Source: Pyrobaculum calidifontis JCM 11548
GTDB lineage: Archaea; Thermoproteota; Thermoprotei; Thermoproteales; Thermoproteaceae
NCBI RefSeq assembly: GCF_000015805.1
Contig: NC_009073.1
Location: 90,001 to 122,000, forward strand
Reading direction: 5' to 3'
DNA: 32,000 nt
The notes under the pieces were generated by a model that was not told where the DNA came from, did not search any database, and saw nothing but the letters and a program-made list of their open reading frames with translations. Position 1 is the first letter of the stretch, and every line of letters starts with the position of its first letter. Shown piece by piece: positions 1 to 14,335 of the stretch. Position numbers and translations under genes: made by a program.

Positions 1-228
1 CGACTGGGGATAAAGGCATGGCCCACATACGCCAACTTCATCTTAGTCAAGGGCCCCCCTGGCCTCGCCGCCGTGCTGAGGGAGTACGGCGTGTGGGTGA
101 GAGACGAGGAGCAGAGGCTGGGCCCCGGCCACGTGCGAATAACAGTGGGCACGCCTGAGATAAACGCCCAGCTCGTCAGAACGCTGAAGACTGTGCTTAA
201 AGCTTCTCTACCTCAGCCGTCAGCTTAG
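1..228 (+). CDS. hisC: C-terminal fragment of a class I/II PLP aminotransferase, most like histidinol-phosphate aminotransferase (5' end outside window)
   Basis: Frame 1 is open from base 1. Translation ...ANFILVKGPPGLAAVLREYGVWVRDEEQRLGPGHVRITVGTPEINAQLVRTLKTVLKAS..., stop TAG 226-228. The ANF(I/V)LVK ... VRD ... (I/L)RITVGTPEEN pattern is typical of HisC C-termini. Confidence 0.6.
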   Translation, partial: RLGIKAWPTYANFILVKGPPGLAAVLREYGVWVRDEEQRLGPGHVRITVGTPEINAQLVRTLKTVLKASLPQPSA

Positions 229-2779
229 CCAGCCTCCTCCGCCTAATAAACCAGACGAGAAACGCGGCGCCGGCCGCCCCGCCCCCTACAGCCACCAGGG
301 GGACCGGGTCTAGGCTCCACACAGCCTCAAAAGTGGTAGACGCGACGACAACGGGCATCTGTGGATAGTTGTAGACGGTGCCAGTGGCCTTGTCCCGCCA
401 GCCGGCGAACACCCAGTGCAAAGGCGGCGGGGACCAGACGTCCATGGGCGTGGGCACGACGCCGGCCACGCCGCCCTCGTCTACCCACATCTGTGGGGGC
501 ACTTGGCCGTAGGCCGAGGTGAAGTAGACGAGGTACTGCCTCTTCGTGGTGTACGTTATATTCAGCGGTCTGTCCACCCGCACTACCAGCGGCACCTGCG
601 AGCCGGCGGGTCGCCCGTTTATGACCCACTGGGCGAGCACTGTGCGGACGTTGCCCCTGGACTCTATGGGCGTGGGGATAGACACAGTGACGTTGGCCCC
701 CCTCTCCACCCACGTGGCGTTAGGCGGATTGGCCACGTATGCCGGCGGCGCCGTCCACACTCTGTACTGAACCACGTACTTCGGCCTAAGCGAGAGCGGG
801 CCTTGCACAGTCCGCACAACCTCAAGCGCCCGCTCCTCAGGCGTAAACTCCAGCCCAGCCCACCCCACAAAGGCCAGCCTAGTCCCATTCCTAAAGTCGT
901 AGAACTCAGGCGCCTTAAACACCACGGTAGACCCCACGTCGGCCCACAGCTGCGTAGAGCCGTTGACAGAGGCAGGCCAGGAGGTGGAGACCAGGGCCTG
1001 CGGCACGTACACCCCCTGCGCGGAGACCGGGTAGGCGGAGACCTCGGGCGCGGGGCCGGAGGCCACCACGTTCCCAGAGCCGTCGAAGACCACCACTAGG
1101 TCGAGCCTAAGCCTAGCAGTGGCGTTTATCTGGACGTACGGCGGTAGCTCCACCCTGTAAACTGCCTTAACGGACACCGGCTTATCCACGTTCACCGTCA
1201 GAGAGGGCGTCGGCACGTCCAGCCTCCTCCCATCCACCACCCAGCCCACCAGCCGCAAGACGCCGGTCGACACAGGCGAGTTGTAGACGGGGATCTCCAC
1301 CCTAGGCTCGGCGTAAAACGCCGCAGGGCCGCTAGCCCAGGCCGGCCCTCTGACAAGGCCCGCGGGCTCCACAGAGATGCGGTACTCCAAGGCGTACCGC
1401 ACTGGCACATGCTCCGCCAAGTCGCCAGTGACCTCGAGCGTGACGTTCCTCAGAGGCCTACACCTCACGTCTCCAAGGTACTTAAACTGGGGCTCCACCG
1501 ATATCTTGCTTACTGGCACCAACACGTCCTGCGCCCCAGACACCGAGTAGGCGTAGACGGCCTCGCCTGCCCTCACCACAACGTCCACCGGGAGGCATTG
1601 CTGTGGCGCGTCGGGGACAATTCTAACGCTGGCAAGTCTAACCGGCGTGACGGAGTCCCAAGTCTCGTAGGCGAGGGCCCTCCCGTTAAACGACGCGGCA
1701 AGAGAAGTGACCGGCCTGCCCGCGGAGATCCGCGCCACCTCCCTCCCCTCTTTAAACACCACTACGTGTCCCCCGAGAGTTCCCACGGCGACTATAGACC
1801 CGTCCCCCGAGGAGTAGACGGAGAGCGGGGGAGCGGGGAGGGGAGCCCTCCACGCGACGGACCCCCTCCTAATGGCCACAAGCTCGCCGAAGGTCCCCAC
1901 GAAGACCCACTCCCCATTCTGACTAACGGCAAAGGGCACCCGAGGCGTGTCAATGCCGTACTCCACTGCGACGGCGGGAGCAAACTCTAGCCCATACGGC
2001 GCCACGTACACCTTCGGCACATCGACCTTGGAAAAACACGCCGCCACAGGCGAGCCGTCCAAAAGCACAGCCAGACCAAGCACAGAGCCCGGACAAGAGA
2101 AGACCTTGGACACGGAGGAGCCCTCCACTTTGTACACCTCGCCCCCCATGGTGCCCGCATACAGCGCGCCGCCGTCCCGCGAATAGGCCAGCGCAGTCAC
2201 CGGCGACGGGAGAGAGGCCTTAGAGACAACTTTCCCATTCCTCAGCACGTACACCTCACCCCCCATAGTGCCCACAGCCACGTCCACACAGTTTGTGGCC
2301 ACTGCGGTGGCGTTTACCTGCGGCCCGAGGGAGGTGGCCCACAGAGGGTAGCCATAGGGCGTGTGCAGAGAGACAAGAGTCGACTTGTACACCCCCGCCA
2401 AGGCCACCGGGGGCAACGGAAGCGTGAGGTTGAGTATAATAGGAACAGTCTTCGACGTAAGCGAGACGCCGTACTGCCTCAACGCATTTATCAAGTCGTC
2501 TGATAGCGTGGCTGTTGTGGGTATCGATATCGTGACGGCAACCCCCTGCGTCTGCGTGTAGTAGACGTACGGCCTATTCGCCACAGCGAAGCACTTGCCC
2601 ACCGCGTCGGTGGCCACGAGCGGGAAAACCGCGTCTAGAGAAAACAGCGAAGCCCCATCTGCGCCGAGAACTCTGACCGCGCCGGGGGACGCCCAGTAGA
2701 AGGTGTCCAGCGCCTCCGTGGGCAAGACGTAGGCAAGGCCCACAGCCGCCAAGACCAGAACCACAAGAAGAAGTCTCAT
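197..2779 (-). CDS. Large secreted/membrane-anchored surface protein: beta-propeller-like repeats plus repeated beta domains and a C-terminal TM anchor
   Basis: 860-aa ORF with ATG at 2779. TATA-like AAATTTATATAC at 2796-2807. Signal-like N-terminus MRLLLVVLVLAAVGLAYV. Four ~40-aa blades with GT(M/L/F)GGEVY-type motifs. C-terminal repeats with (F/V)xGW motifs (LRLVGWVVDG, LAFVGWAG, WVFAGWRD). C-terminal TM plus basic tail (AAGAAFLVWFIRRRRL). Nine N-x-S/T sequons. Confidence 0.85.
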   Translation of the reverse strand: MRLLLVVLVLAAVGLAYVLPTEALDTFYWASPGAVRVLGADGASLFSLDAVFPLVATDAVGKCFAVANRPYVYYTQTQGVAVTISIPTTATLSDDLINALRQYGVSLTSKTVPIILNLTLPLPPVALAGVYKSTLVSLHTPYGYPLWATSLGPQVNATAVATNCVDVAVGTMGGEVYVLRNGKVVSKASLPSPVTALAYSRDGGALYAGTMGGEVYKVEGSSVSKVFSCPGSVLGLAVLLDGSPVAACFSKVDVPKVYVAPYGLEFAPAVAVEYGIDTPRVPFAVSQNGEWVFVGTFGELVAIRRGSVAWRAPLPAPPLSVYSSGDGSIVAVGTLGGHVVVFKEGREVARISAGRPVTSLAASFNGRALAYETWDSVTPVRLASVRIVPDAPQQCLPVDVVVRAGEAVYAYSVSGAQDVLVPVSKISVEPQFKYLGDVRCRPLRNVTLEVTGDLAEHVPVRYALEYRISVEPAGLVRGPAWASGPAAFYAEPRVEIPVYNSPVSTGVLRLVGWVVDGRRLDVPTPSLTVNVDKPVSVKAVYRVELPPYVQINATARLRLDLVVVFDGSGNVVASGPAPEVSAYPVSAQGVYVPQALVSTSWPASVNGSTQLWADVGSTVVFKAPEFYDFRNGTRLAFVGWAGLEFTPEERALEVVRTVQGPLSLRPKYVVQYRVWTAPPAYVANPPNATWVERGANVTVSIPTPIESRGNVRTVLAQWVINGRPAGSQVPLVVRVDRPLNITYTTKRQYLVYFTSAYGQVPPQMWVDEGGVAGVVPTPMDVWSPPPLHWVFAGWRDKATGTVYNYPQMPVVVASTTFEAVWSLDPVPLVAVGGGAAGAAFLVWFIRRRRLAKLTAEVEKL

Positions 2780-2868
2780 AGGAGCCCCAACTCACAAATT
2801 TATATACGCTACGGTGTGCAACGCCAGGGACAACGCCGCCTAGACCACTAAAGACACGTTAGCCCTCC

Positions 2869-3057
2869 TCATAAGCTCCCTAAAATCCTCGAGGTCAAGC
2901 CCGGCGAAAAAGCCGCCCGCCTAATATCCCCCGTCTCAATATAGTAAAGGAGGGCCGCCTTAAGCCGGGGAGGCAGACTCTCAATAAACGCCCAATCCGC
3001 GTACCGCTTTCTAGCCTCTTTCTCGGCCTCAACCCATTTTTCCAATGACAAAGACAA
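2869..3057 (-). CDS. Small hypothetical protein, possible truncated HTH/antitoxin-like protein (see T5-run finding)
   Basis: 62-aa ORF MSLSLEKWVEAEKEARKRYADWAFIESLPPRLKAALLYYIETGDIRRAA... Weak TATA-like TTTTTACA about 20-30 nt upstream on the minus strand. Divergent from the PaREP1 pseudogene. Confidence 0.45.
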   Translation of the reverse strand: MSLSLEKWVEAEKEARKRYADWAFIESLPPRLKAALLYYIETGDIRRAAFSPGLTSRILGSL

Positions 3058-3097
3058 ATTAAGAATGTAAGTTGTAAAAACGCCAATGGAACTGGCA

Positions 3098-3111
3098 ATT
3101 GGGCGCCCAAT
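3098..3111. promoter_or_regulatory. Perfect 14-bp palindrome ATTGGGCGCCCAAT in a divergent intergenic region (candidate operator)
   Basis: Read directly: attgggc|gcccaat. It lies between the minus-strand start at 3057 and the plus-strand ATG at 3136. Confidence 0.4.
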
Positions 3112-3135
3112 CCCCTAAGCCCTCCTCTGCAGATT

Positions 3136-3633
3136 ATGCTTCTGCCCGCCTTCTTGAGGCGGTTGGCGGAGGCCAAGCGGGCGTTGGAGTTCCTACGCCG
3201 AGACTTAACACGCAACACGGCTGGTAAGGCCCTCCAAGCGTGGAGAGCCGCCCTAGCCGCTTTGCTTAGGCTGTAGCTGGACAAGCTCAAGACCCTGGCC
3301 AAGACGGAGGAAGAGCTGCGTTGGCTAGAAGAGAGGGCAGTCTTCCTTGTCCCCACTACTAAGATGGTGCCCCTCTCCCAGCTGTTGGAAGAGGCGGGGC
3401 ACGAAGGCGTCTTGTCGGACACAAGCCTCGCGCTAGACCTCCACGACTATCAATGCCACGGGCCCGACCCCGACATGGCGTTGAGCAAGTACAGGACGAG
3501 GGAGGAGGCCGCCGCGGCCGTCAAGGTCTTGCTGAGGCGCGTGGCTGCGCGCATAGGCGAGGCCCGCCCCCGCTCGGCGGAGGTAGAAAAGGCGATGAAG
3601 AAGCTAGAGGAGGAGCTGAGCCGCGTCGCCTAG
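3136..3633 (+). pseudogene. PaREP1-family gene interrupted by an in-frame TAG (3274-3276)
   Basis: ATG 3136 is in the same frame as ORF 3364-3633. Translation MLLPAFLRRLAEAKRALEFLRRDLTRNTAGKALQAWRAALAALLRL*LDKLKTLAKTEEELRWLEERAVFLVPTTKMVPLSQLLEEAGHEGVLSDTSLALDLHDYQCHGPDPD... It shares the AG(K/R)AxQAWxAxLAAL and AL(D/N)LH(D/E)YQxxGPD motifs with the intact paralog at 25909-26409. Confidence 0.75.
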
Positions 3634-4565
3634 AGGGGGAGGGGCGTGAGCTCCCTAGACGCCTCGATTAGCCACACCCCCAGCTCCCTCGCCTTCTCAA
3701 CCGCCTCCGGCGACGCGTCCATGCAGTAGAACACCTTGACCACCCGCCCCTGGAACTTCTCGGGCCACATCCTCACAGCCTCCTCCACCCTAGCCACAAG
3801 CCTCTCCACAGCCCCGGCGCTAGCCCTAAGCTTCACCTCGCCCACCACGGTCACGCCCCCCGCCGCGCAGTACACGTCAAACTCGTACTCCCCATCCAAG
3901 CGGAGCCTAGACGCCCTGCACAACACACCCCGCTGCTTCAAAAACCACACCACATAGTCACGAGCCACCTCCTCCAAAGACAAAGCAATGTCCTCCACCT
4001 GCTCCTTAGTAGCCATCTTATTCTCCAGCCGCCTTATATCCTCCTTAGTGGCAAAGCGTTCCAAGTCCTCCTTCGTCGCAAATTTTTGCAAGTCTTCCTT
4101 CGTCGCCATTCTAGCCTCTAAGGCTTTTAAATCCTCCTTAGTAGCCATACTCTCCTCCAGGCGCCTTACCTCTTCCCTCACCACCGCCACGTCTTCCCTT
4201 GTGGCAAATCGCTGTAGATCCTCTTTAGTGGCGAAACGCTCCAAGTCCTCCTTTGTGGCCATTCTGGCCTCTAGGGCCTTGATGTCGTCTTTTGTCGCCA
4301 TGCGGGCTTCCAAGGCCCTTAAGTCTTCTTTAGTCGCCATTTTTGTCTCCAACATCTTGATGTCCTCTTTCGTGGCCACGTTTAGCGGTATTGTGATCAT
4401 AGCCGCCAGCTCGGCGGCAAGCCTAGCCCTAGCCCTCGGGCTCCTCAGCAGGGTCTCCACAAGCTCCTCAGCCCCACTATCGCCAATAGCCTCTAGCAGA
4501 ACCCCTCTGAGAAACTCCCTATCCTCCTCCGCCAGCCGCTTGAGAAGTCTCTTAAACTCCTCCAC
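3630..4565 (-). CDS. Coiled-coil (ATKEDL-repeat) protein with C-terminal PD-(D/E)XK nuclease-like domain (DUF3782/DUF1626-like Pyrobaculum family)
   Basis: The ORF track gives 3630-4613 (TTG start). A TATA box CTATAAAGTTATTTTTATAC lies inside that extension (about 4578-4601). A GTG at 4565 sits ~25 nt downstream and gives (M)EEFKRLLKRLAEEDREF, which aligns with MEFAQLKAAILKLLREDEEF of the paralog at 12751. The C-terminus carries FDVY...VVGEVK (D...ExK). Confidence 0.8.
   Translation of the reverse strand: MEEFKRLLKRLAEEDREFLRGVLLEAIGDSGAEELVETLLRSPRARARLAAELAAMITIPLNVATKEDIKMLETKMATKEDLRALEARMATKDDIKALEARMATKEDLERFATKEDLQRFATREDVAVVREEVRRLEESMATKEDLKALEARMATKEDLQKFATKEDLERFATKEDIRRLENKMATKEQVEDIALSLEEVARDYVVWFLKQRGVLCRASRLRLDGEYEFDVYCAAGGVTVVGEVKLRASAGAVERLVARVEEAVRMWPEKFQGRVVKVFYCMDASPEAVEKARELGVWLIEASRELTPLPL
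3987..4376 (-). repeat. In-frame coding tandem repeat: 11 ATK(E/D)D(L/I)-type units of 9 or 13 codons
   Basis: Protein residues ~80-209: ATKEDIKMLETKM ATKEDLRALEARM ATKDDIKALEARM ATKEDLERF ATKEDLQRF ATREDV... ATKEDLKALEARM ATKEDLQKF ATKEDLERF ATKEDIRRLENKM ATKEQV. The DNA shows repeated tcctccttagtggc / tcctccttcgtcgc motifs. Confidence 0.9.
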
Positions 4566-4690
4566 AACACTTACGAGAGGTATAAAAATAACTTTATAGC
4601 CACTGGAGATCAAGCCCGATTACGGCGAAGCCGCCAGGTGCTCGTAGCGACATATAACGCAGGGCATAAATTACTACCCCATGTAGCGAC

Positions 4691-5044
4691 GTGGCACGGC
4701 GAGGAAGCGGACGGATAACGTGGGGCGACGTGAGGCGGGGCATAGTGTGGTTCTTCGTTACTATCTTCTTCGCCGCGTTTACCTGGTTTATTGTAACGGC
4801 CTTCTTCAATTACTACTACACGCTTAATGTGACGCAGTATGTAGTCAACTTCCTTGATCGCCTCGTCGGCCAAGGCCTCGCCCTTAATTACACATGCAGT
4901 GCAAGCCCCTGTAGAATCGACCTAGGCCCAGGTGACAAGGTGCTGAACTTCACCGTAGAGAACCCCACCTCGTCGCCACTGGTTGTACTACTAAGAGGGG
5001 AAGGCGGAGCCGTTGCAACCGCCGCTGTGCACGGTTCAAACTGA
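4691..5044 (+). CDS. Cassette copy A, fragment 1/3: N-terminal TM helix plus extracellular domain of an uncharacterised membrane protein
   Basis: GTG 4691 lies ~22 nt downstream of TATA-like CATAAATTA (4665-4673). Homologous to the N-terminus of 6892-8007 (VLNFTVENPTSSPLVVLL vs VLNIAVDNPSVYPLVLLA, conserved Cys pair). The frame ends at TGA 5042 while homology continues in another frame. Confidence 0.7.
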   Translation: MARRGSGRITWGDVRRGIVWFFVTIFFAAFTWFIVTAFFNYYYTLNVTQYVVNFLDRLVGQGLALNYTCSASPCRIDLGPGDKVLNFTVENPTSSPLVVLLRGEGGAVATAAVHGSN

Positions 5045-5094
5045 TAATACGTTTCACAAAGTCTCTTGAGGCAGAGTTTTATCCAACAAATGCG

Positions 5095-5622
5095 TTGACC
5101 ATCGTCAATCCCACGGAAATAGGGGTAAACGAATCCACGACTGCAGAAGTGGAGGTGGTGCCCCTCTTAAGCGTTAACACCTTCTTACTTGTGACCTCTA
5201 CCGTTATAGGCGTTTTAACTTCATCGCTTGTATACAACCACATAGCCAAAAAACCTCTCGCAAAGATCTACAACGGGGGACCGATAAGGTGGGGTATTAT
5301 ATTGATAATGACGCCACTACTGTTCTTTATCACTGGTTACATTGTAGTATATTTTACGAGAGCACATGACGTGAGACTACTTCTGGCATATCTATTAATT
5401 AAAATGCTCTACCCGCTCATGTTTATATACGGCAAGCTCTTTGTACTAAAAAGTGGGCTCTCCCTACACGCAAAAGCTAGCGTCTTCCATATTGTAGATA
5501 TATCTTGGGTGCTCTGGATTGTTCACTGGGCCTTTGACCCCCTAACCGCCCTCTCCTTCATGGGACAGAATAATACAGCCAGCTGCAAGTCTCGCATTTC
5601 TTATCATTACTCACAGTATTAA
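5095..5622 (+). CDS. Cassette copy A, fragment 2/3: polytopic TM core (frame is open from ~5035)
   Basis: Aligns with the central part of 6892-8007: HIAKKPLAKIYNG vs HFAKKPLAKMYHE, and VHWAFDPLT is identical. This segment is markedly AT-rich compared with its flanks. Confidence 0.7.
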   Translation: MTIVNPTEIGVNESTTAEVEVVPLLSVNTFLLVTSTVIGVLTSSLVYNHIAKKPLAKIYNGGPIRWGIILIMTPLLFFITGYIVVYFTRAHDVRLLLAYLLIKMLYPLMFIYGKLFVLKSGLSLHAKASVFHIVDISWVLWIVHWAFDPLTALSFMGQNNTASCKSRISYHYSQY

Positions 5623-5651
5623 TCTCTGCCACTCCATTTGTCTTACCATTA

Positions 5652-6278
5652 ATGCTCCCCCTATTTAGGCTCAGGACGCTACTCCTCTTCATGCCCTTCG
5701 CTCTCAACTACGAGCTGGCGGCGAGGGAGGAGTTCTGCAGGCGGACACGGAGCCGTCTCGTCGCCGTGGCGCTTGAGGCAGAGGGGAGGGTCTACAGGGG
5801 CGTGGTGACGGCCTGCGACGGGGACGTGGTAGTCGTAGAGGGCAAGGAGGGGGAGTACGTGGTGCCGTGGAGCAAGGTGGACCACGTGCTGGAGGCCAGG
5901 GAGGTGGCAGACCTCGGGAGGGGCGAGGCCAAGGCCCTGCTGAAGAGGGCTGGGAGGGGAAGCGTCGTGGTTGTGCATAGGGGAGGCGCCGCGCCATACC
6001 TCTACATATGCGCCGAGGGGAGGGACTGCGAAATAGCCTTCGAGGGGAGACTTCCCGTTGCCGGCGGAGAGGCCGTGGGGCGGGGAAGCGCCGTGGTGAA
6101 GTGCGGCGGCAAGAAGGTGCGCCTAGACGCGGCGCCAGGCGACGCGGCGGAGGGCACAGCCCACTACACATGCCCCACGAGATTCAAAGTCGCCGTGGTG
6201 GCCCTTGGCCCCACCCGCGTAGAGCCAAGAGGGTGCTGGCCAGCAGAGGAGTCGCCCTACGTCATAGAAAAGGCGTAG
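5652..6278 (+). CDS. Cassette copy A, fragment 3/3: last TM helix plus ~190-aa cytoplasmic beta-rich / Cys-containing tail (frame is open from 5574)
   Basis: LPLFRLRTLLLFMPFALNYELAAREEF aligns with LPFFRLRTLLLLVPFALNAELAARREL of copy B. GRVYRGVVTACDGDVVVVEGKEGEYVVPWSKVDHV aligns with copy B across its frameshift. Confidence 0.75.
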   Translation: MLPLFRLRTLLLFMPFALNYELAAREEFCRRTRSRLVAVALEAEGRVYRGVVTACDGDVVVVEGKEGEYVVPWSKVDHVLEAREVADLGRGEAKALLKRAGRGSVVVVHRGGAAPYLYICAEGRDCEIAFEGRLPVAGGEAVGRGSAVVKCGGKKVRLDAAPGDAAEGTAHYTCPTRFKVAVVALGPTRVEPRGCWPAEESPYVIEKA

Positions 6279-6355
6279 AGCGGCAGAGGAGTCGATATAC
6301 CGTTAAAGCTTATGAGCCCCCTCGTGGTATAAGCCACTACTCTATAGTGTCAGGA

Positions 6356-6724
6356 TTATTTAGGTTGTACAGTGGCTGTGAATAGGGCGACTGCGCCGTT
6401 GCCAAGGATCACGCGGCCAGAAACCACTTGGCCTGGGGTAAGCTCCACGTCTATCTTGCCCTTAATAGTGTCGGGCCCTGTAACGACTTTTGTCAAAGGT
6501 TTCTGGATGCCGGCGATTTCCACGCTGAGAACCTCTACTCGGCCCACGACCTGCGGCACCACCTTCAGCTCAAACGACCCGTCCTCGTACACCTTTGCCT
6601 CTTGCACTACCAATACCCCGCTTGGTTGCCTAGCTGTTGCAAATGCGGTATAGATGTAGCCGCCTACGGCGATTGCCACCACCAACACTAATGCCAGTAT
6701 TACCGCGACTTCAAGAGATGTCAT
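6356..6724 (-). CDS. Type-IV-pilin-like small protein (copy A), with no leader peptide
   Basis: 122 aa, MTSLEVAVILALVLVVAIAVGGYIYTAF... Paralog of 8585-9031, sharing the N-terminal helix and the C-terminal GQV(V/L)SGRV(I/V)L..GAVA.FTATV. An in-frame TAA lies 8 codons upstream with no alternative start. Confidence 0.8.
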   Translation of the reverse strand: MTSLEVAVILALVLVVAIAVGGYIYTAFATARQPSGVLVVQEAKVYEDGSFELKVVPQVVGRVEVLSVEIAGIQKPLTKVVTGPDTIKGKIDVELTPGQVVSGRVILGNGAVALFTATVQPK

Positions 6725-6891
6725 ATACCGTTCAACGTACCCTACTTAAGTGTTTTTCGCATAATTACGGCGGACGCCCCACCCTGTCGATGCCCAGCGC
6801 CGCTAAAAGATCTAAAGAGCTGTAGCCCATGGGAAATGCCCGGGATGTCGCCACCGTCACATAGTTATAAAATCTCGTGGCAACGTTACCC

Positions 6892-8007
6892 ATGGGGAAG
6901 AGCTTAGTCGCTGTCGCCATTGTCGCAGTGCTGTATTTTTCGCTCTCGCTCTGGTTTGCCATAACCGTGTTTTCAACCTATGCCTCGACGTACAACACGA
7001 CCAAGTACATCACTGAGGTATTGAGCGCCATTGATGGACACCGCCCATCTTCAATACACTCCTGCTTGACCTCATGCAATGTCGCAATGGGGGGCCCTCA
7101 CGTCCTAAACATTGCGGTGGACAACCCCTCCGTGTACCCCCTTGTGCTACTGGCGCGAGAGACACGCGGCAACGCCACAGTCGCAGTAGTGGCCTACGGC
7201 GCTCCCGCTATTTCAATAGAGTTCAACAACACGCTAGTAGTAACACCCTACCCCACGCACCCCCTCGTGGTTGCAAAGCCCCGGTACATAATAGCGGACA
7301 AGTCAGCGAGCGCCAACGTAGAGACGTTGCAGATCTTAGACGCAAACATGGCCGTGGCGACCCTCTCGCTGTTGGCTGGTGTAATCGCATCAGCGCTCGC
7401 CTCAAGCCACTTTGCCAAAAAGCCCCTTGCGAAAATGTACCACGAGCTTTACACAGCCCCGTGGAGACACCTGCTGTTCCCCTCGCTACTTGCGGCAGGG
7501 CCAGCAATCCCCATCGCTCTCGCCCTCTACCAAGCAATGCGTCCATCGCTGGGGGCGTACCTCCTCGTCGTGGGGCTAAAGCTCGTCTACCCTCTCTTAC
7601 ACGCTCTCTTCAAGGCCTACGTCTTGTCCAAGAGGCTCAGCCTTGCGGACAAGGTCGGCGTCTTGCACACCGCCGATCTCTTCCTAGTGTTCTGGGTAGT
7701 CCACTGGGCGTTTGACCCCCTCACGAACGTAGTGGCGGCAAACTGGGAGTTAGCGTATATGCTGGCCAGCATCGCCTACGCCGCCTCGACGTTTCTACTC
7801 GTCGTCGCCACATTTCTGCTCCCAGCCGCGTTGTTGCCCTTCTTTAGGCTGAGGACGCTACTCCTCCTCGTCCCCTTCGCCCTCAACGCAGAGCTCGCGG
7901 CCAGGAGAGAGCTCTGCCAACGGGCGCGCGGCTCCCTCCTGTGCGTTACTTTGACGGCAGACGGCGAGAGGCACAGCGGCGTAGTACCGCATGCAACGAT
8001 GACGTAA
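6892..8007 (+). CDS. Cassette copy B: uncharacterised polytopic membrane protein, truncated by a frameshift at ~7986
   Basis: The ORF track gives 6877-8007. ATG 6892 lies ~24 nt downstream of TATA-like AGTTATAAAATC (6863-6874). One ORF covers what is split into three fragments in copy A. The frame ends ...GERHSGVVPHATMT* while homology to copy A continues in frame 0. Confidence 0.75.
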   Translation: MGKSLVAVAIVAVLYFSLSLWFAITVFSTYASTYNTTKYITEVLSAIDGHRPSSIHSCLTSCNVAMGGPHVLNIAVDNPSVYPLVLLARETRGNATVAVVAYGAPAISIEFNNTLVVTPYPTHPLVVAKPRYIIADKSASANVETLQILDANMAVATLSLLAGVIASALASSHFAKKPLAKMYHELYTAPWRHLLFPSLLAAGPAIPIALALYQAMRPSLGAYLLVVGLKLVYPLLHALFKAYVLSKRLSLADKVGVLHTADLFLVFWVVHWAFDPLTNVVAANWELAYMLASIAYAASTFLLVVATFLLPAALLPFFRLRTLLLLVPFALNAELAARRELCQRARGSLLCVTLTADGERHSGVVPHATMT

Positions 8008-8462
8008 TTGTGTTAGAGGAAGAAGGGGAGCACGCCCTGCCATGGGGCCGAGTGGACACAGTCACCGCCGTGAAAGAGGTTGCGGAAATAGGCCGAGAGG
8101 AGGCGAAGGCCCTCCTCGCTAAGCTGAGAAATGAGCTCATGCGCAAAGTGGGGCTCAAGGCCGCGACTAAGGGGTACATAGTCGTCGTCAAGAGGGCCGC
8201 TCCACATGACTATATATAGGTCTATGTGGACGGCGGCGGGTGCCGAGCGTCCTTCGACGGTAGGTTGCCCACAGTCGCCAAAGAGGCCGTGGGGAAGGGC
8301 GGCTTCACCGTTGAGTGCCACGGCAAGTCCATATGCATGGACGTTACGCTGGCGCAGTCCAGCGATGACGTCATGTGCTACAAGTGTAAAGCCGACTTAG
8401 TCATCGTCGCCCAAGGCCCCAATAACCCCACCCCCACAGACGAGGAGTGCAATGTGCGTTAG
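7986..8462 (+). pseudogene. Cassette copy B, C-terminal cytoplasmic tail: out of frame with 6892-8007 and carrying an in-frame TAG (8217-8219)
   Basis: Frame 0 reads TACNDDVIVLEEEGEHALPWGRVDTVTAVKEVAEIGREEAKALL...VVVKRAAPHDYI*VYVDGGGCRASFDGRLPTVAKEAVGKGGFTVECHGK... This is colinear with copy A (APYLYICAEGRDCEIAFEGRLPVAGGEAVGRGSAVVKCGGK). The TAG aligns with a Tyr codon of copy A. Confidence 0.7.
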
Positions 8463-8584
8463 ATGCCTCACGCCGCTAAAGCACACCACAGCGCAGGCCG
8501 CACACACCGCCCGCCGAGCCATGCCTACGGTGGAGTAAGCGAGGCACACCACAAAATATTTATTAAACCACGTTTCAAACGCAC

Positions 8585-9031
8585 ATGCCAAAGGCAAAAG
8601 GTATGACATCCCTAGAGGTGGCAATAATAGTCGCAATAGTGCTAGTAATCGCGATAGCGGTTGGCTGGTACCTATACACCACATTCTCCTCAGCCTCACA
8701 ACAAAGCGGAATTACAGTGACCGAAGCAACTATCTATGCCTCAACCAGTGGTAGTACAACTACATACACACTTGTCATGAGACTAACACCCCAAGGAGCA
8801 GCTCAAGTTGCAATAGACAGAATAGAGATAGCGGGAAAACAAATGAAATGCACCAGCGGGAATATTATACAGAGTCCTGGAGAGTATTATGTTACGCTAA
8901 GTGGTATAACGTTGTCTGTCGGCCAAGTGTTGTCGGGCAGAGTGGTACTGCAATCTGGCGCTGTGGCGCCATTTACAGCAACTGTAGTAGCTGGCACGTA
9001 TACGGGTAGCAATCAAATCGTCTGTAGCTAA
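8585..9031 (+). CDS. Type-IV-pilin-like small protein (copy B) with class III signal peptide
   Basis: 148 aa, MPKAKG|MTSLEVAIIVAIVLVIAIAVGWYLYTTF: short basic leader, K-G, then a hydrophobic helix with Glu at +5. TATA-like AAAATATTTATTAAA at 8552-8566. AT-rich codon usage. Confidence 0.85.
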   Translation: MPKAKGMTSLEVAIIVAIVLVIAIAVGWYLYTTFSSASQQSGITVTEATIYASTSGSTTTYTLVMRLTPQGAAQVAIDRIEIAGKQMKCTSGNIIQSPGEYYVTLSGITLSVGQVLSGRVVLQSGAVAPFTATVVAGTYTGSNQIVCS

Positions 9032-9056
9032 GGTTAGACCCGGCTAAGTCCACTCA

Positions 9057-9073
9057 TTTTTTCATATCTTTTT
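9057..9073 (+). terminator. Oligo-T tracts (T6 at 9057-9062, T5 at 9069-9073) downstream of the pilin-like gene
   Basis: cattttttcatatctttttc lies 25-40 nt after the TAA at 9029-9031. Archaeal termination is typically at T-runs. Confidence 0.5.
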
Positions 9074-9192
9074 CTTCTGAGGGTCTTCCTTAATGGTGAT
9101 TATTCCGTTCGTAGTGCTTACAGGTGAAAGTTCTGGAAGTCTACGTAATGCTTGCCGTTTCTGAGTACGTTAAAACTTATGTGTAACTACGC

Positions 9193-10434
9193 CTACTCTA
9201 TCCATTGGACGTTTTGGGGTGTGTAGTGGTTGGGTAGTGTGGTGTCTAGGTTGGGTGGTTTTAGTAGGTGACGCCACTCGGCTGGGCGGGGGAGTATATA
9301 CTCGCTGGGGGTCACGTCGAGCACCCACAGGGTCTCCGCGACGTAGTATATAGTTCCGCATTTGCGGCACTTCCAGCCTTTTCCTCTGCCGAGGCTTTCT
9401 AGGGAGCCTCCGCAGTGGGGGCACCTCTGCCTGATCTTGACGTAGCGGCCGTGGATGTGGGCGCGTTCGACGTATAGGTATAGCGACCCGTGTCTGGGCT
9501 TTAGGCCGCCGTAGAGCTCGACGTAGCACCCGACGCACTTCTCCAACGCCGTGGCTAGTGGGCCTAGGTGGCGGTAGGCGGCGAAGGGGAGGCCGGTGTC
9601 TAGCCGGCCGACGACGTGGCGGGCCTTGGTGCGCCTGGCCTCGGCGATTATGCCCTTGGCGATGTAGTAGGAGTAGGGGTGGGGCTCGTCGTATATTACG
9701 CCGTGGCGCAGGTGGGCGTCTGTGGCTTGGTTTGTGCGGAAGATGGCCCACCCCGCCGGCCGGTACCCCTGCCCCTCTAGGAGGGCCTTGGCGTAGAGGA
9801 GATGGTGTGGGGTGAGGCCTCTGATGCCGTAGTAGACTGGGTCGGGGCCCCTCGGCTGTATCAGGACTCTGCGGCGGTCTAGGTTGTGGAAGGTGAAGGG
9901 GTAGGTGAGGGCCTCCATTGCCTTCACTAGGCTCGGCGGTATCTCGGCTCGGTCTCCCTCGCGGTAGGCCAACAGCTCGAAGGTGGACTCGCGTAAGTCG
10001 GCGCCGATGGCGGCCACTGCGCCTATTTTCCCCCTGCCGCCCCACGTGGTTGCCCCGGCCCGCTCCGCGGCGCTTAGGCTGACCACCTGGGTTAGGGCCA
10101 TGCGGTAGAGGACTTTGGCCCTCTCGGGGACCTCCCCAACGGCCATGGCGATGCCGGGGTCTGTCTTCCCCTCCCGCCTGGCCAGCGCCGTGACTACCTC
10201 CACGGCGAGTCTCCAGAGCTCGTCGGGGTCTGGCACGTCCAGCGCCAGGGCCACCGCGGCGTTGCCCCTGGTCTTGAAGGGGATGTTGGGGTTTAGCCGA
10301 ACCAGGCGGGGGAAGTCGAGGAAGGCCTGGGGGCCCCACCTCTTCAGCACCTCTTTTGCGAGGACGTAGGCCACGTAGGTGGTGCAGCCCCCGCCGTGGC
10401 TGTCTGTGTCGTCGATTCCCAAGAAGACGCGCAC
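9193..10434 (-). CDS. tiaS: tRNA(Ile2) 2-agmatinylcytidine synthetase TiaS
   Basis: 413 aa. N-terminal FLGIDDTDSHGGGCTTY motif and C-terminal zinc ribbon CPHCGGSLESLGRGKGWKCRKCG, matching the TiaS/DUF1743 architecture. GTG 10434 with a TATA-like CACTTAAAC ~22 nt upstream. Confidence 0.85.
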   Translation of the reverse strand: MRVFLGIDDTDSHGGGCTTYVAYVLAKEVLKRWGPQAFLDFPRLVRLNPNIPFKTRGNAAVALALDVPDPDELWRLAVEVVTALARREGKTDPGIAMAVGEVPERAKVLYRMALTQVVSLSAAERAGATTWGGRGKIGAVAAIGADLRESTFELLAYREGDRAEIPPSLVKAMEALTYPFTFHNLDRRRVLIQPRGPDPVYYGIRGLTPHHLLYAKALLEGQGYRPAGWAIFRTNQATDAHLRHGVIYDEPHPYSYYIAKGIIAEARRTKARHVVGRLDTGLPFAAYRHLGPLATALEKCVGCYVELYGGLKPRHGSLYLYVERAHIHGRYVKIRQRCPHCGGSLESLGRGKGWKCRKCGTIYYVAETLWVLDVTPSEYILPRPAEWRHLLKPPNLDTTLPNHYTPQNVQWIE

Positions 10435-11485: not shown

Positions 11486-11805
11486 ATATATACTATTTGC
11501 GGATTTAGAAAAATTTTCTCCTTTTCTCCGCTAACGCAGTATTCGACTTTGAGCGTTAGTTTACAGTCGCCTTGGCGGCGGCTGTGCGCTAATTCCAGCC
11601 TCCTTAGCCTTAGTATCATCTCGGTGGGGGGTTTGGAGGGTCTGGGAAGCGTTCTTTAGGATAGGGGGCCTAGTGCGAGGAATTTGTCTATGGTCCCGTC
11701 TTGTGGCTCCTCCGCACAGGAGTGGTGTGGGGGCTTGTCTATCCAGTATGTCCCCTTGGCTAAGACGTAGCTCTCTCCGCCTTGTGCGACGTGTATAAGG
11801 CCGCT

Positions 11806-12618
11806 CTACAGATAGGGCCTGTACCATGGGTCTCTTAGGGAGGGGCGCTGGGTGGAGGAGGTTTCGCCTACCCAGGTCTGGCCTTTTACGGCGGCTTGTG
11901 CCACATTTCTTATGTCTAGGGGTAGGGATGGGCCGTAGTGGGCTAGGGTGTCGTTTGGCGTGGCTACGTGTGGGCGGCTTTTTAGGAGTTGGTGCTCCGC
12001 GGGGGCGAGGGCTTTGCCCCGCGCCTCGTATATGACGAAGTTGGCCTCGTGGAGCTCTTTGGGTGGGTCTTGGCTGTGTTTGAAGACGCAGGGTGGGGTC
12101 TTCGCGTATTTTAGGCCGGCGGCTGTGAGGGCGTCTGCGAGGTAGGAGTTTCTGCAGGCGAGGTCGTACACGCCGAGGTTTATCACGGCGACTACTCCTT
12201 CGAGGATTGGGGGGCCTCTTAGGAGGTCTTTGTACACCCCCGCTATCCAGTCTCCCTGCTCGTCTTTGTCGAAGAGGCGGGCGAAGAATCGGAAGATTGC
12301 GGCCACGTGGTCGACGCTGGTGGGGGTCGGCACTGCCACCACCGCATTGGCGGCCGTGGCGGCTTTGTCCAAGAGGTGAGTCTGGACTGGGTGGTAGAGT
12401 ATGACGAGGTCGGGCCCCATCCTCTTGACGGCGTCGAAGTTCATGTCTACGAAGGTGCCTACTATGGGGGCCTTCATGAGCTCCCGGGGGCGGTAGGTGA
12501 AGGCGTCGCGGCCCGCCAGCTCGACGCCCAGCAGGGCCAGGAACTCGTTTACCGAGGGGTTCAGCGACACTACCCTCTTAGGCACCCCGTCTACCTCGCC
12601 GCGGAGAATCACGGCCAT
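11806..12618 (-). CDS. BtuF/FhuD-type (TroA-like) periplasmic-binding-protein-fold protein without a signal peptide
   Basis: The ORF track gives 11806-12744. ATG 12618 (MAVILRGEVDGVPKRVVSLNPSVNEFLALLG...MGPDLVILY) lies ~19 nt downstream of TATA CAATTATAAAAAG (plus 12632-12642). The upstream extension is Pro/Arg-rich junk. Confidence 0.7.
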   Translation of the reverse strand: MAVILRGEVDGVPKRVVSLNPSVNEFLALLGVELAGRDAFTYRPRELMKAPIVGTFVDMNFDAVKRMGPDLVILYHPVQTHLLDKAATAANAVVAVPTPTSVDHVAAIFRFFARLFDKDEQGDWIAGVYKDLLRGPPILEGVVAVINLGVYDLACRNSYLADALTAAGLKYAKTPPCVFKHSQDPPKELHEANFVIYEARGKALAPAEHQLLKSRPHVATPNDTLAHYGPSLPLDIRNVAQAAVKGQTWVGETSSTQRPSLRDPWYRPYL

Positions 12619-13450: not shown

Positions 13451-14110
13451 CCTTATGTTGTCTCTAGGCTTGGTGAGGAGGAGTTGGACCTGTTGACTTC
13501 GCAAGTGGGGCCAGATAAGGCGGCGGTGATAGACAGTGCGCTTTCTGCTGTGGCTGGGGAAAGATATGCCGTGCTCGAAGTTGTTGAGAGTTTATGGGGG
13601 CGATGCGGAGGGAGCGGTGGGTCACCTTAAGTGGATTAAGCCTTGTGTCTCTGACTGGCATGTGGACAGAGCTGTTTCTCTTCTGAAGAGACTTGGGCTG
13701 TATGCAGAGGCCCAGAGCGCATTTGGATGGCGGTGCCGTTGTAGATAGAGGCCTTTAACGCAATTGCCAGAGGTTTGTTCAAAGCGTCTTTGTTAAACTC
13801 TGGATCTGTCAGCAGTGCAGAGATATACGCGCTTGAGAAGCCGCCGACGAGCAACTGGCGCCCTGTCGAGGCGCTTATGTCGAACGGGGTCGAGGTTTAC
13901 CTCCCTACGATGGAAGAGATGGTGTTGTATCTAATTACTACAACAGGCTTTAGTAAATTAGCCGAGTTTGATCCTAATGGTATTGTGATAGTCTCATATG
14001 CGCTGGCGGATCGGCTGTGCTCATATCCTCTCACCAAGGCGCTTCTCAGTAGTAGAGAGCTCAGGGTAGGGAGGCTGAGGGTGCTGTCGCCTGGCGAGGT
14101 AGAGGGGGGC
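13451..14110 (+). pseudogene. Possible decayed gene: three protein-like segments in frames 2 / 0 / 2 with an in-frame TAG
   Basis: Segments are LGEEELDLLTSQVGPDKAAVIDSALSAVAGERYAVLEVVESLWG (frame 2), GDAEGAVGHLKWIKPCVSDWHVDRAVSLLKRLGLYAEAQSAFG (frame 0), and IEAFNAIARGLFKASLL...VEVYLPTMEEMVLYLITTTGFSKLAEFDPNGIVIVSYALADRL...RVLSPGEVEGG (frame 2, after TAG 13742-13744). No family recognised. The 3' part of ORF 13775-14371 is antisense shadow of 14336-14617. Confidence 0.3.
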
Positions 14111-14335
14111 GCCGCGTACCCCCGCTTCTGTTGGGGTATTGATCTTGCCCCCTACCCGGGCCTCGCCGCGGTCTCATTGGCCCTGTTTGGGGGCCGCGTC
14201 CCCGGCTGGTTTTTACCCCCGCCTTTCGGCGGCCCGCCGGGGACCTCCGCGGGCGGGCGGGAGGTTCCAGGGGCGGCCCGTCTCCGGGCTTGCCCCGTTC
14301 CCCTCGGCGCCCCGCCTCTCTGTGGGTGTGGGTTT

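What the first reader, a model, noticed from the sequence alone, without database searches (positions are those of the whole stretch)
4691..9031. Tandemly duplicated cassette: unrecognised polytopic membrane protein followed by a type-IV-pilin-like small protein
Copy A is made of ORFs 4691-5044, 5095-5622 and 5652-6278 plus the small gene 6356-6724 (minus strand). Copy B is 6892-8007 and 7986-8462 plus the small gene 8585-9031 (plus strand). When the pieces are joined conceptually, both large genes encode the same ~520-530 aa architecture. It starts with an N-terminal TM helix. Next comes a ~100-aa outside domain with a conserved Cys pair and VLN(F/I)xV(E/D)NPxxxPLV(V/L)LL. Then come 4-5 TM helices with conserved polar residues inside hydrophobic stretches: H(I/F)AKKPLAK(I/M)Y, (F/L)HxxD, an identical VHWAFDPLT, and LP(L/F)FRLRTLLL. 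Last is a ~190-aa cytoplasmic tail that begins with an Sm/SH3-like beta pattern and ends in a Cys-containing segment (F(E/D)GRLP, V(K/E)C(G/H)GK). I cannot assign it to any named family. The invariant His/Asp residues inside TM segments suggest a membrane-embedded active or metal site. The repeated pairing with a pilin-like gene suggests a functional unit such as a pilin/pseudopilin handling or anchoring module. That link is inference only.
Basis: partly seen in the sequence, partly recalled or inferred. Interest (0 to 1): 0.75.

Follow-up and report, generated by a model that had tools for sequence, protein, structure and literature searches.

The report
Dead orphan membrane genes beside pilins
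Two neighbouring genes for an uncharacterised, very rare membrane protein are both broken in this Pyrobaculum calidifontis genome, and their placement next to two type IV pilin genes (one already structurally known) is a local quirk of a fast-changing genomic island, not a conserved pilus module.

Summary
The window is Pyrobaculum calidifontis. Region 4691-9031 holds two paralogous ~530-aa membrane-protein genes (tblastx E 3e-60) and two paralogous small genes.

The small genes are archaeal type IV pilins. 8585-9031 is the ortholog of the solved P. arsenaticum pilin Par_PilA (PDB 6W8U, E 7.5e-48). 6356-6724(-) is an intact paralog with no leader peptide.

Both large genes are pseudogenes here, with three independent lesions each. 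Related hot-spring populations carry intact copies (518-549 aa, dN/dS about 0.25).

The protein has an N-terminal anchor, a beta-sandwich ectodomain, five TM helices, an Sm/Hfq-like barrel and a Cys-rich beta domain. It matches no Pfam, NCBIfam, PHROG, PADLOC or PDB family. Only 26 relatives turned up among 1.84 billion representative proteins.

The proposed pilin-handling link is not supported. Four other Pyrobaculum pilA loci lack the gene. Distant homologs sit beside a plasmid-like HerA/TraG-type ATPase operon, with no pilins. The "invariant" His residues are not conserved.

The family is AT-rich in GC-rich genomes, hypervariable between conserved flanks, and repeatedly inactivated. This points to a dispensable, probably mobile-element-derived envelope protein of unknown biochemistry. 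Interest is moderate.

The parts
4691..6278 (+). Copy A: pseudogene of the orphan ~530-aa membrane protein. Approximate layout: N-terminal TM and beta-sandwich ectodomain 4691-5170, TM module 5170-5750, Sm/Hfq-like barrel 5760-5903, C-terminal beta/Cys domain 5961-6230.
   Evidence: Read in three frames. Lesions against L006: 4-bp deletion after 5039, 5-bp deletion after 5560, +1 at 5609. Intact orthologs exist: P0130, P0155, P0156. AF2 models. The central part is 43% GC against 55-67% at the ends, and only about 34% aa identical to the alternative allele in L004/L005.
6356..6724 (-). pilA': intact type IV pilin paralog with no leader peptide. It starts directly at MTSLE, and has no Cys pair and no C-terminal extension.
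   Evidence: phmmer against PDB 6W8U, E 9e-21. An in-frame TAA lies 8 codons upstream of the ATG with no alternative start. It is intact and conserved in L004, L005 and L006, with dN/dS 0.29-0.48.
6892..8538 (+). Copy B: pseudogene of the same family. Approximate layout: ectodomain 7024-7326, TM module 7330-7920, Sm-like barrel 7925-8095, C-terminal domain to 8538.
   Evidence: 1-bp deletion at 7986, TAG at 8217-8219 and +1 at 8451, judged against L004, L005 and L006. An intact 549-aa ortholog sits at L006 9552-11201. P0002, P0003, P0008 and P0009 read through the lesion sites.
8553..8567 (+). A/T-rich TATA-like box (AAAATATTTATTAAA), 18-32 nt upstream of the pilA ATG and inside the 3' region after copy B.
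   Evidence: Read directly from the sequence. The box is conserved in L005 and L006. That pilA has its own promoter is inference.
8585..9031 (+). pilA: intact ortholog of the P. arsenaticum major type IV pilin Par_PilA. Leader MPKAKG, mature N-terminus MTSLE, and two Cys at the positions of the disulfide.
   Evidence: phmmer against PDB 6W8U, E 7.5e-48, aligned from mature residue 1. Weak Class III signal peptide match PF04021. PMC7347861. 294 homologs, mostly from metagenomes, the named ones Pyrobaculum.
3630..4613 (-). DUF8196-type protein with ATKEDL coiled-coil repeats: the intact, conserved left-hand neighbour of copy A within the island.
   Evidence: Orthologs are annotated PF26618 in L004, L005 and L006. 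Length varies 273-356 aa between populations.
3112..3633 (+). PaREP1 pseudogene (in-frame TAG where L005 has Glu): part of the same decaying island.
197..2779 (-). 860-aa beta-propeller protein with a signal peptide. This is the gene that actually accompanies pilA in other Pyrobaculum lineages.
   Evidence: Orthologs (42-59% identity) lie directly downstream of pilA in L012 and L015 and about 1.8 kb downstream in P. aerophilum L001. Weak beta-propeller Pfam hits.

Best explanation
Region 4691-9031 is the core of a hypervariable accessory island in P. calidifontis.

**Contents.**
- pilA: the intact, separately promoted ortholog of the characterised Par_PilA type IV pilin.
- pilA': an intact paralog with no leader peptide.
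- Two paralogous genes for an orphan ~530-aa envelope protein. Both are inactivated in this strain, with three independent lesions each.

**The protein in relatives where it is intact.** It is built of an N-in signal-anchor helix and an extracellular, sequon-rich beta-sandwich with one Cys pair. Five TM helices follow, carrying a conserved Y-D...W...W..(N/D)P motif. A long helix (PFxLNxELxAR) leads into a cytoplasmic Sm/Hfq-like barrel. Last comes a beta-rich Cys domain, which is fused in this lineage but encoded by a separate downstream gene in the distant lineage.

**Shown.**
- The family is extremely rare.
- It is compositionally foreign: 40-44% GC in roughly 60% GC flanks.
- It behaves as a hypervariable cassette between conserved flanks.
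- In its other lineage it lies next to a plasmid-like operon with a membrane-anchored HerA/TraG-type ATPase.
- It was under purifying selection until recently, and is repeatedly and independently pseudogenised.

**Inferred (most likely reading).** It is a dispensable, mobile-element-derived envelope protein. It probably oligomerises through its Sm-like domain and acts in interactions with foreign elements, such as exclusion or entry of viruses or plasmids. It is not a pilin-processing or pilus-assembly component. Its pairing with pilin genes would then be lineage-specific co-location in a surface-structure island.
For: **Identity and lesions.**

**Pilins.**

**No family match.** Pfam, NCBIfam, PHROGs, PADLOC and a PDB profile search all found nothing. 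tblastn against phage and plasmid collections and a viral-contig scan were also negative.

**Rarity.** 26 hits at E<=1e-3 in 1.84e9 representatives. Only P. calidifontis appears among NCBI-sourced hits. Two genome scans gave no relative.

**Structure.** AF2 full length has pLDDT 67.6, with ectodomain and cytoplasmic domains at 75-90. The C-terminal 208 aa has pLDDT 80. Foldseek top hits are Hfq.

**Topology.** Sequons and Cys positions are.

**Selection.** dN/dS is about 0.25 for the large genes. The island is far more diverged than its flanks: 73-90% against about 95% nt identity, and pilA dN is 0.26-0.37 against 0.02-0.03 for TiaS and the propeller.

**Independent lesions.** Five of eight large-gene copies in four populations carry lesions, and some intact copy exists for each paralog.

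**Mosaic alleles.** Copy A's central cassette is about 34% aa identical between alleles, while the gene ends are 77-89% identical.

**Distant clade.**
- The genes are AT-rich islets.
- Flank proteins are 76-92% identical, against 39-47% for the membrane protein.
- The neighbouring operon holds a DUF87/HerA/TrwB/TraG-like ATPase, a RadA-like gene and an M48-like peptidase.
- The C-terminal domain is a separate ORF.

**Other dead genes in the same island.**
Against: - No biochemical function is demonstrated, and nothing links the protein directly to exclusion, entry or defence. PADLOC and PHROGs are silent.
- The mobile-element reading of L016 rests on one 15-kb stretch. No integrase or att sites were seen, and there is no nearby tRNA.
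- Low GC is partly expected for an Ile/Leu/Phe-rich membrane protein.
- The TM part of the model is poor (pLDDT 40-60), and oligomerisation was not modelled.
- Some evidence keeps a pilus link alive. The large-gene/pilin pair appears to have duplicated together (about 40% identity for both pairs). The synteny is kept in all four P. calidifontis-type populations. In L005, copy B and pilA are both broken.
- General decay of the island in this strain (PaREP1 and a small ORF are also dead) means the losses may reflect relaxed selection rather than selection for loss.
Confidence: 0.6

Rival explanations
1. The large protein would be an accessory factor of the PilA-type pilus, such as a membrane anchor, a base component, or a pilin-handling or sensing protein. 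Each paralog would serve its adjacent pilin.
For: - The gene order A-pilA'-B-pilA is kept in all four related populations.
- Both pairs diverge by about 40%, consistent with co-duplication.
- In L005 both copy B and pilA are frameshifted.
- No PilA-type pilus is among the filaments reported from P. calidifontis: flagellar-like T4P from another locus, bundling pili and Ted pili (PMC10334743, PMC9245690, PMC9905601). That would fit loss of an accessory factor.
Against: - pilA loci in P. aerophilum and three other Pyrobaculum populations lack any homolog.
- The family is undetectable in other named genomes. P. arsenaticum assembles Par_PilA pili (PMC7347861), though its genome was not searched directly.
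- Contigs carrying distant homologs have no pilins.
- pilA appears to have its own TATA-like promoter.
- There is no similarity to PilC/FlaJ or to prepilin peptidases.
- All the synteny comes from one lineage, so it counts as a single evolutionary observation.
Confidence: 0.15
2. The large protein would be a surface receptor or entry factor used by Pyrobaculum viruses, working alongside the PilA pilus that PFV2 binds. Its allelic diversity and repeated inactivation would then be escape from infection.
For: - It has an exposed Ig-like ectodomain with sequons.
- It lies beside pilA, a documented virus receptor (PMC7347861), and pilA is itself hypervariable here.
- Lesions are independent in several populations.
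- Deeply diverged alleles sit in otherwise about 95% identical backbones.
Against: - The most variable part is the TM3-TM4 region, not the ectodomain. In the distant clade the ectodomain is the best-conserved part, 60-68% identical.
- Other, non-surface genes of the island are also dead in this strain.
- There are no virus data for P. calidifontis in hand.
Confidence: 0.12
3. It would be an MscS-like or other ring-forming channel: a TM bundle followed by an Sm-fold beta domain that forms a cytoplasmic ring, serving as an ordinary housekeeping osmotic valve.
For: The Sm-like barrel sits directly after the last TM helix, as in MscS (architecture from general knowledge). The fold is supported.
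Against:
- There is no Pfam MS_channel hit.
- The barrel is preceded by an Hfq-type N-terminal helix.
- The narrow distribution, foreign composition and dispensability do not fit a housekeeping channel.
Confidence: 0.05
4. The frame breaks would be artefacts or programmed recoding, and the genes would be functional in P. calidifontis.
For: Pyrobaculum genomes are known for frameshift-prone repeats (general knowledge). One lesion in relative L006 lies in an A6 run.
Against: - There are six lesions of five different kinds (-4, -5, +1, -1, a nonsense codon, +1), and none lies in a long homopolymer or a conserved slippery site.
- Orthologs are uninterrupted at each site.
- The same truncated products are recovered on 10-11 contigs from independent sources.
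Confidence: 0.03

Closest known systems
Par_PilA, major type IV pilin of Pyrobaculum arsenaticum (PDB 6W8U; Wang et al. 2020, PMC7347861)
   Same: The gene at 8585-9031 aligns from mature residue 1 (MTSLE...) over the whole pilin at E 7.5e-48. It has a short basic leader ending in Gly and a Cys at the position of Cys80. The gene at 6356-6724 is a paralog (E 9e-21).
   Different: The paralog has no leader peptide, no Cys pair and no C-terminal extension. Nothing in the published description involves a neighbouring polytopic membrane protein.
Sm/LSm/Hfq fold (for example Hfq, PDB 1KQ1 and 5SZD)
   Same: The predicted cytoplasmic domain is an N-terminal helix plus a five-stranded bent barrel. Hfq chains are the top Foldseek hits (probability about 1.0, target TM-score mostly 0.5-0.65). 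The sequence aligns in register with the Sm1 motif (V.V.L...G....G.V..CD.D.IVV).
   Different: Sequence-level support is not significant (hmmsearch E 1.2, hhalign E 0.067). The domain is tethered to a six-TM membrane protein and is followed by an extra beta domain. RNA binding and ring formation are untested.
MscS-family mechanosensitive channels
   Same: The order of parts is the same: TM helices, then an Sm-fold beta domain, then a further C-terminal domain.
   Different: No profile similarity. This protein has an extra N-terminal anchor and an Ig-like ectodomain. It is narrowly distributed and dispensable.
CedA/TedA (VirB6-like) channel working with CedB/TedB (VirB4/HerA-like ATPase) of crenarchaeal DNA-transfer systems (PMC9905601)
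   Same: In contig L016 the distant homolog, a polytopic membrane protein, lies beside an operon encoding a membrane-anchored HerA/TraG/TrwB-like ATPase and a RadA-like protein.
   Different: No sequence match to TrbL/VirB6 models. CedA/TedA have no Ig-like ectodomain and no Sm-like tail. P. calidifontis has its own Ted locus elsewhere (Pcal_0765/0766). The adjacency is seen in one long contig only, and the genes are divergently oriented.
Membrane effectors of short-pAgo abortive-infection systems (SiAgo-Aga1-Aga2 of Sulfolobus islandicus; bioRxiv 10.1101/2021.12.09.471704)
   Same: In L016 a short pAgo (PADLOC E 9e-12) lies two genes downstream of the homolog, in the same AT-rich islet.
   Different: SiAga2 has two TM regions and a lipid-binding basic pocket, which is a very different architecture. 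The other contigs of the clade show no pAgo. There is no PADLOC hit for the membrane protein.

Membership tests
Archaeal type IV pilin (Par_PilA family; class III signal peptide) | Significant sequence homology to a pilin shown to form a type IV pilus | tested here: met
   8585-9031 against 6W8U, E 7.5e-48. 6356-6724 against 6W8U, E 9e-21.
Archaeal type IV pilin (Par_PilA family; class III signal peptide) | Short basic leader ending in Gly, followed by a hydrophobic N-terminal helix (the prepilin peptidase site) | tested here: met
   Met for 8585-9031: MPKAKG|MTSLEVAIIVAIVLVIAIAV, with weak PF04021 support at E 0.0034. NOT met for 6356-6724. That ORF starts at MTSLE, with a TAA 8 codons upstream and no alternative start.
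Archaeal type IV pilin (Par_PilA family; class III signal peptide) | Assembly into a filament | not testable with these tools
   No PilA-type pilus is among the filaments reported from P. calidifontis in the papers read.
Type IV pilus platform protein (PilC/FlaJ/TadC, T2SSF domain), considered for the large protein | Match to the T2SSF domain (PF00482), usually duplicated | tested here: not met
   No Pfam or NCBIfam hit at E<=1 for any fragment, or at E<=0.1 for intact homologs.
Prepilin peptidase (PibD/FlaK, Peptidase_A24), considered for the large protein | Match to the A24 model and two catalytic Asp in TM segments | tested here: not met
   No Pfam hit. Only one invariant Asp (D272) is present in the membrane module.
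Sm/LSm/Hfq fold, cytoplasmic domain of the large protein | N-terminal helix plus a five-stranded bent beta-barrel | tested here: met
   AF2 pLDDT is about 80-90 in this domain. Foldseek top hits are Hfq, probability 0.96-1.0 and target TM-score 0.47-0.65, but E is only 0.03-0.1.
Sm/LSm/Hfq fold, cytoplasmic domain of the large protein | Significant sequence or profile similarity to Sm/Hfq families | tested here: inconclusive
   hmmsearch against PDB gave Hfq at E 1.2. hhalign against E. coli Hfq gave E 0.067. No Pfam LSM or Hfq hit.
Sm/LSm/Hfq fold, cytoplasmic domain of the large protein | Hexameric or heptameric ring; RNA binding | not testable with these tools
   No multimer prediction was available.
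MscS-like channel | Profile similarity of the pore helix and beta domain to MscS | tested here: not met
   hhalign probability 0.03% against E. coli MscS. No PF00924 hit.
VirB6/TrbL/CedA/TedA channel | Profile similarity to VirB6-like proteins; genetic linkage to a VirB4/HerA-like ATPase and a VirB2-like pilin | tested here: inconclusive
   No Pfam or PDB-profile hit. Linkage to a HerA/TraG-like ATPase is seen only in L016. No VirB2-like pilin was recognised. HHpred against TedA could not be run.
Known anti-phage defence proteins (PADLOC) and viral protein families (PHROGs) | Match to any model | tested here: not met
   No hit for P0130, L006 copy B, the L011 homolog or the L016 homolog.

The most novel reading that the evidence does not exclude
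The large protein would found a new class of hypervariable, mobile-element-borne envelope proteins in Thermoproteales. An Ig-like ectodomain and a cassette-swappable TM module would be coupled to a cytoplasmic, nucleic-acid-binding Sm ring. It would act as an allele-specific gate for foreign DNA, virus or plasmid exclusion or entry, functionally tied to pili or DNA-transfer machinery. That would explain its position next to pilA in one lineage and next to a HerA/TraG-type ATPase operon and a short pAgo in another.
Probability: 0.15. Interest if true: 0.75.

Novelty: new variant of a known kind. Interest (0 to 1): 0.4.

Why it matters
The pilin genes add nothing new: they are orthologs and paralogs of a solved pilin.

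The large genes matter in three modest ways.
- They define an orphan envelope-protein family, made of recognisable folds in an undescribed combination. It would be invisible to annotation in the type strain because both copies are dead.
- The locus is a clear example of a hypervariable surface island in a hyperthermophilic archaeon. It shows mosaic alleles, foreign base composition and repeated independent gene death next to a known virus-receptor pilin. This bears on virus-host dynamics in hot springs.
- A membrane-tethered Sm-like domain, if real, would be an unusual use of that fold.

None of this is yet tied to a function. In this genome the feature is non-functional.

Tried and rejected
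- **Family searches.** Pfam, NCBIfam, PHROGs and PADLOC scans of fragments, intact orthologs and distant homologs found nothing.
- **PDB sequence and profile search.** Only sub-threshold Hfq and S1 matches.
- **Foldseek against PDB and BFVD.** Only domain-level, weak matches: Hfq for the barrel and CnaB/Ig-like domains for the ectodomain. The C-terminal beta domain matched nothing.
- **MscS hypothesis.** Rejected by hhalign.
- **Viral or plasmid origin by direct similarity.** No megablast or tblastn hit in the phage or plasmid collections, and none in IMG/VR.
- **Genome scans.** The metagenome scan added only L011.
- **Phase variation by homopolymer slippage.** Rejected for this strain, because none of the lesions lies in a long run.
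- **Integration at a tRNA.** No tRNA genes in the window or in the related loci.
- **Co-segregation of alleles.** Copy-A alleles do not co-segregate with pilA' alleles. The window groups with L006 for copy A but with L004 for pilA'.
- **P0059 look-up.** The P. ferrireducens pilin context look-up failed.

Full report
**1. What is in the sequence**

The window is from Pyrobaculum calidifontis. The 371-aa product of 6892-8007 is 100% identical to an NCBI P. calidifontis protein on a 2,009,313-bp contig.

The two large regions are genuine paralogs. tblastx gives a summed E of 2.8e-60, and the repaired proteins are about 40% identical. Every quoted motif is present in both copies.

**2. Both large genes are dead in this strain**

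I aligned the DNA to syntenic loci from three related hot-spring populations: L004 (JGI 3300005801), L005/L010 (ENA ERZ1684501) and L006/L007 (JGI 3300005798). This shows three lesions in each copy.
- Copy A: a 4-bp deletion after 5039, a 5-bp deletion after 5560 and a +1 insertion at 5609.
- Copy B: a 1-bp deletion at 7986, an in-frame TAG at 8217-8219 where all orthologs have Tyr, and a +1 insertion at 8451. The repaired copy B runs 6892-8538.

None of the lesions lies in a long homopolymer. The same truncated products are found on 10-11 contigs from independent sources. Artefact and programmed recoding are therefore very unlikely.

No intact third copy from P. calidifontis appeared in any search.

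**3. The genes were functional until recently and are lost repeatedly**

Intact orthologs exist.
- A-type: P0130 (531 aa), P0155 (532 aa), P0156 (518 aa) and others.
- B-type: 549 aa in L006.

Pairwise dN/dS is about 0.25 for both paralogs.

The related populations carry their own, different lesions:

| Population | Copy A | Copy B |
|---|---|---|
| L004 | intact | +1 insertion near residue 465 |
| L005 | intact | 7-bp deletion and 1-bp deletion |
| L006/L007 | -1 in an A6 run | intact |

Five of eight copies in four populations therefore carry lesions, each from a separate event.

In the window other island genes are dead too. These are a PaREP1 copy with an in-frame TAG and a small ORF with a frameshift. 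General relaxation of selection on the island in this strain is thus as good an explanation as targeted loss.

**4. The small genes are true type IV pilins, and one is already known**

The product of 8585-9031 matches the cryo-EM-solved P. arsenaticum pilin (PDB 6W8U) at E 7.5e-48, aligned from the mature N-terminus MTSLE. Its six-residue leader MPKAKG corresponds to the cleaved signal sequence described for Par_PilA. That pilus is the receptor of the virus PFV2 (PMC7347861). An A/T-rich TATA-like box lies 18-32 nt upstream of the ATG, so pilA probably has its own promoter.

The minus-strand gene 6356-6724 is a diverged paralog (E 9e-21). It cannot have a leader, because a TAA lies eight codons upstream and there is no alternative start. 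It also lacks the Cys pair. It is nevertheless intact and conserved in all four populations, with dN/dS 0.29-0.48. Leaderless pilin-like paralogs also lie beside pilA in unrelated loci (L014, L012).

**5. The large protein**

No Pfam, NCBIfam, PHROG or PADLOC model matches any fragment, intact ortholog or distant homolog. A profile search of PDB sequences finds nothing significant.

An exhaustive HMMER profile search of 1.84 billion representative proteins gives only 26 hits at E<=1e-3. Two motif-driven scans of 185,579 genomes give no confirmed relative. Phage, plasmid and IMG/VR searches are negative.

AlphaFold2 gives a full-length pLDDT of 67.6. The ectodomain and cytoplasmic domains score 75-90, and the TM region only 40-60. 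The C-terminal 208 aa modelled alone scores 80. Together with hydropathy, sequon and Cys analysis, the layout is:
- a basic N-terminus and TM1;
- a roughly 100-aa beta-sandwich ectodomain with a Cys pair and several N-x-S/T sequons;
- five TM helices;
- a long helix carrying PFxLNxELxAR;
- a barrel whose best Foldseek matches are all Hfq (probability about 1.0, target TM-score 0.5-0.65, E 0.03-0.1);
- a beta-rich, Cys-containing domain with no structural match.

Sequence support for the Sm assignment is sub-threshold but in register with the Sm1 motif. An MscS relationship was tested and rejected.

Across the whole family only D272, W278, W282, P286 and the juxtamembrane F/N/E/A/R residues of PFxLNxELxAR are invariant.

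**6. Is it a pilin module?**

From the pilin side:
- pilA loci in P. aerophilum (L001) and in three other Pyrobaculum populations (L012, L014, L015) contain no homolog of the large gene.
- In three of these four loci, pilA is instead followed by an ortholog of the 860-aa signal-peptide beta-propeller protein that lies at 197-2779(-) in the window.

From the large-protein side:
- The distant clade comprises P0136, P0138, P0142, P0143, P0145, P0147, P0148 and P0151, at 19-25% identity and 244-527 aa.
- These proteins keep the ectodomain, TM module and Sm-like barrel. In L008, L011 and L017 the C-terminal Cys domain is encoded by a separate downstream ORF.
- None of the five contigs shows a pilin gene in the available flanks.

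The family was not found in any other named organism, and P. arsenaticum assembles Par_PilA pili. I did not search the P. arsenaticum genome directly.

The A-pilA'-B-pilA arrangement is conserved only within the P. calidifontis lineage, which is a single evolutionary observation. The pilin and large-gene pairs diverge by similar amounts, which suggests co-duplication. In L005, copy B and pilA are both frameshifted. These are the only points in favour of a functional link.

**7. What the comparative data point to instead**

- **A hypervariable island.** The finding sits in a hypervariable island within a conserved backbone. Flanks are about 95% nt identical to L010, while 3000-9500 is 73-90% identical with gaps. 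pilA dN is 0.26-0.37, against 0.02-0.03 for the flanking TiaS and propeller genes.
- **A mosaic copy A.** Its ends are 77-89% aa identical between populations. Its central part (residues about 116-330) occurs as two alleles only about 34% identical, as far apart as A is from B. The window's allele is 43% GC, against 55-67% at the gene ends.
- **The same pattern in the distant clade.** The genes are 40-44% GC islets in roughly 60% GC flanks. Neighbouring proteins are 76-92% identical between contigs, while the membrane protein is 39-47% identical. The TM3-TM4 region is the most variable part.
- **A plasmid-like neighbourhood in L016.** The divergent upstream operon encodes a membrane-anchored DUF87/HerA/TrwB/TraG-like ATPase, an M48-like peptidase, a RadA-like protein and several unknowns. 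A short pAgo lies two genes downstream. Fragments of two genes of this operon occur near the island in L006.

Together these features fit a dispensable, horizontally moving envelope gene engaged in some variable interaction. They do not fit a core pilus component.

**8. Mechanism, with shown and inferred steps**

- **Shown:** domain order, topology signals, conservation pattern, rarity, composition, hypervariability, neighbourhoods and pseudogenisation.
- **Inferred:**
  - The Sm-like domains oligomerise into a cytoplasmic ring beneath a TM assembly.
  - The protein takes part in exclusion or entry of viruses or plasmids, or in another self/non-self function.
  - Its loss is tolerated or favoured.

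I give about 0.8 to the structural and evolutionary description and about 0.3 to the functional guess. The pilus-accessory rival gets 0.15, the virus-receptor rival 0.12 and an MscS-like channel 0.05. Artefact or recoding gets 0.03.

**9. Novelty and verdict**

The pilins are already known. The large genes belong to an undescribed orphan family built from familiar folds in a new combination. In this genome they are pseudogenes, and no new system is demonstrated.

Interest is moderate (0.4). The proposed pilin-handling unit and the His/Asp active site are not supported.

Noticed in passing
window 197-2779 (-): An 860-aa beta-propeller protein with a signal peptide. Orthologs (42-59% identity) lie just downstream of pilA in L012 and L015, and about 1.8 kb downstream in P. 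aerophilum (L001). This makes it the conserved pilA neighbour in the genus and a candidate pilus-associated or adhesin protein. In P. calidifontis it is separated from pilA' by about 3.6 kb of island material.
   Followed up: partly
window 3112-3633 (+) and 2843-3075 (-): A PaREP1 copy with an in-frame TAG (Glu in L005) and no clear start, and a 73-83-aa conserved small ORF with a frameshift near 2899. These are further dead genes in the same island.
   Followed up: partly
window 3630-4613 (-): A DUF8196-type protein with tandem ATKEDL-containing coiled-coil repeats and a C-terminal globular domain. Its length varies between populations (273, 307, 327 and 356 aa), presumably through repeat-number change. 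A related 411-aa protein lies upstream of pilA in P. aerophilum (L001 4068-5303).
   Followed up: no
L016 12127-13494 (+), with neighbours 11646-12020 and 13632-14162: A short prokaryotic Argonaute (PADLOC pAgo E 9e-12) sits in the same AT-rich islet as the distant large-protein homolog. This may be an uncharacterised pAgo system of a Pyrobaculum-like host.
   Followed up: partly
L016 1012-9798 (-): An operon-like run of 11 genes. It includes a 644-aa ATPase with N-terminal TM helices and DUF87/HerA/TrwB/TraG-like motifs, an M48-like membrane peptidase and a RadA/Rad51-like protein. It looks like an integrated plasmid or conjugation-type element. Its first two genes (264 and 286 aa) are the conserved neighbours of the distant homologs in L008, L011 and L017.
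   Followed up: partly
L005 11817-12267: pilA itself is frameshifted after residue 21 in this population. Its globular domain is only about 40% identical to the window's pilA. pilA is the most diverged gene of the island (dN 0.26-0.37, dS above 1 between populations whose flanks are about 95% identical).
   Followed up: partly
L014 5476-5838 (+) and L012 5528-5839 (+): Further pilin-like paralogs lie immediately upstream of pilA in loci that lack the large gene. The L014 one starts directly at MSSLQLAALLAIILVIAF, with no leader. A pilin-like partner may be a general feature of Pyrobaculum pilA loci.
   Followed up: no
window 5035-5650 versus L004/L005 copy A: The central cassette of copy A exists as two alleles about 34% aa identical, inside a gene whose ends are 77-89% identical. 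The window and L006 share the low-GC (43%) allele, and both carry lesions. L004 and L005 share the other allele, and both are intact.
   Followed up: yes
window 9193-10434 (-): An intact TiaS gene (tRNA-Ile2 agmatidine synthetase; Pfam TiaS domains E 1e-11 to 7e-29) forms the conserved right-hand border of the island.
   Followed up: no
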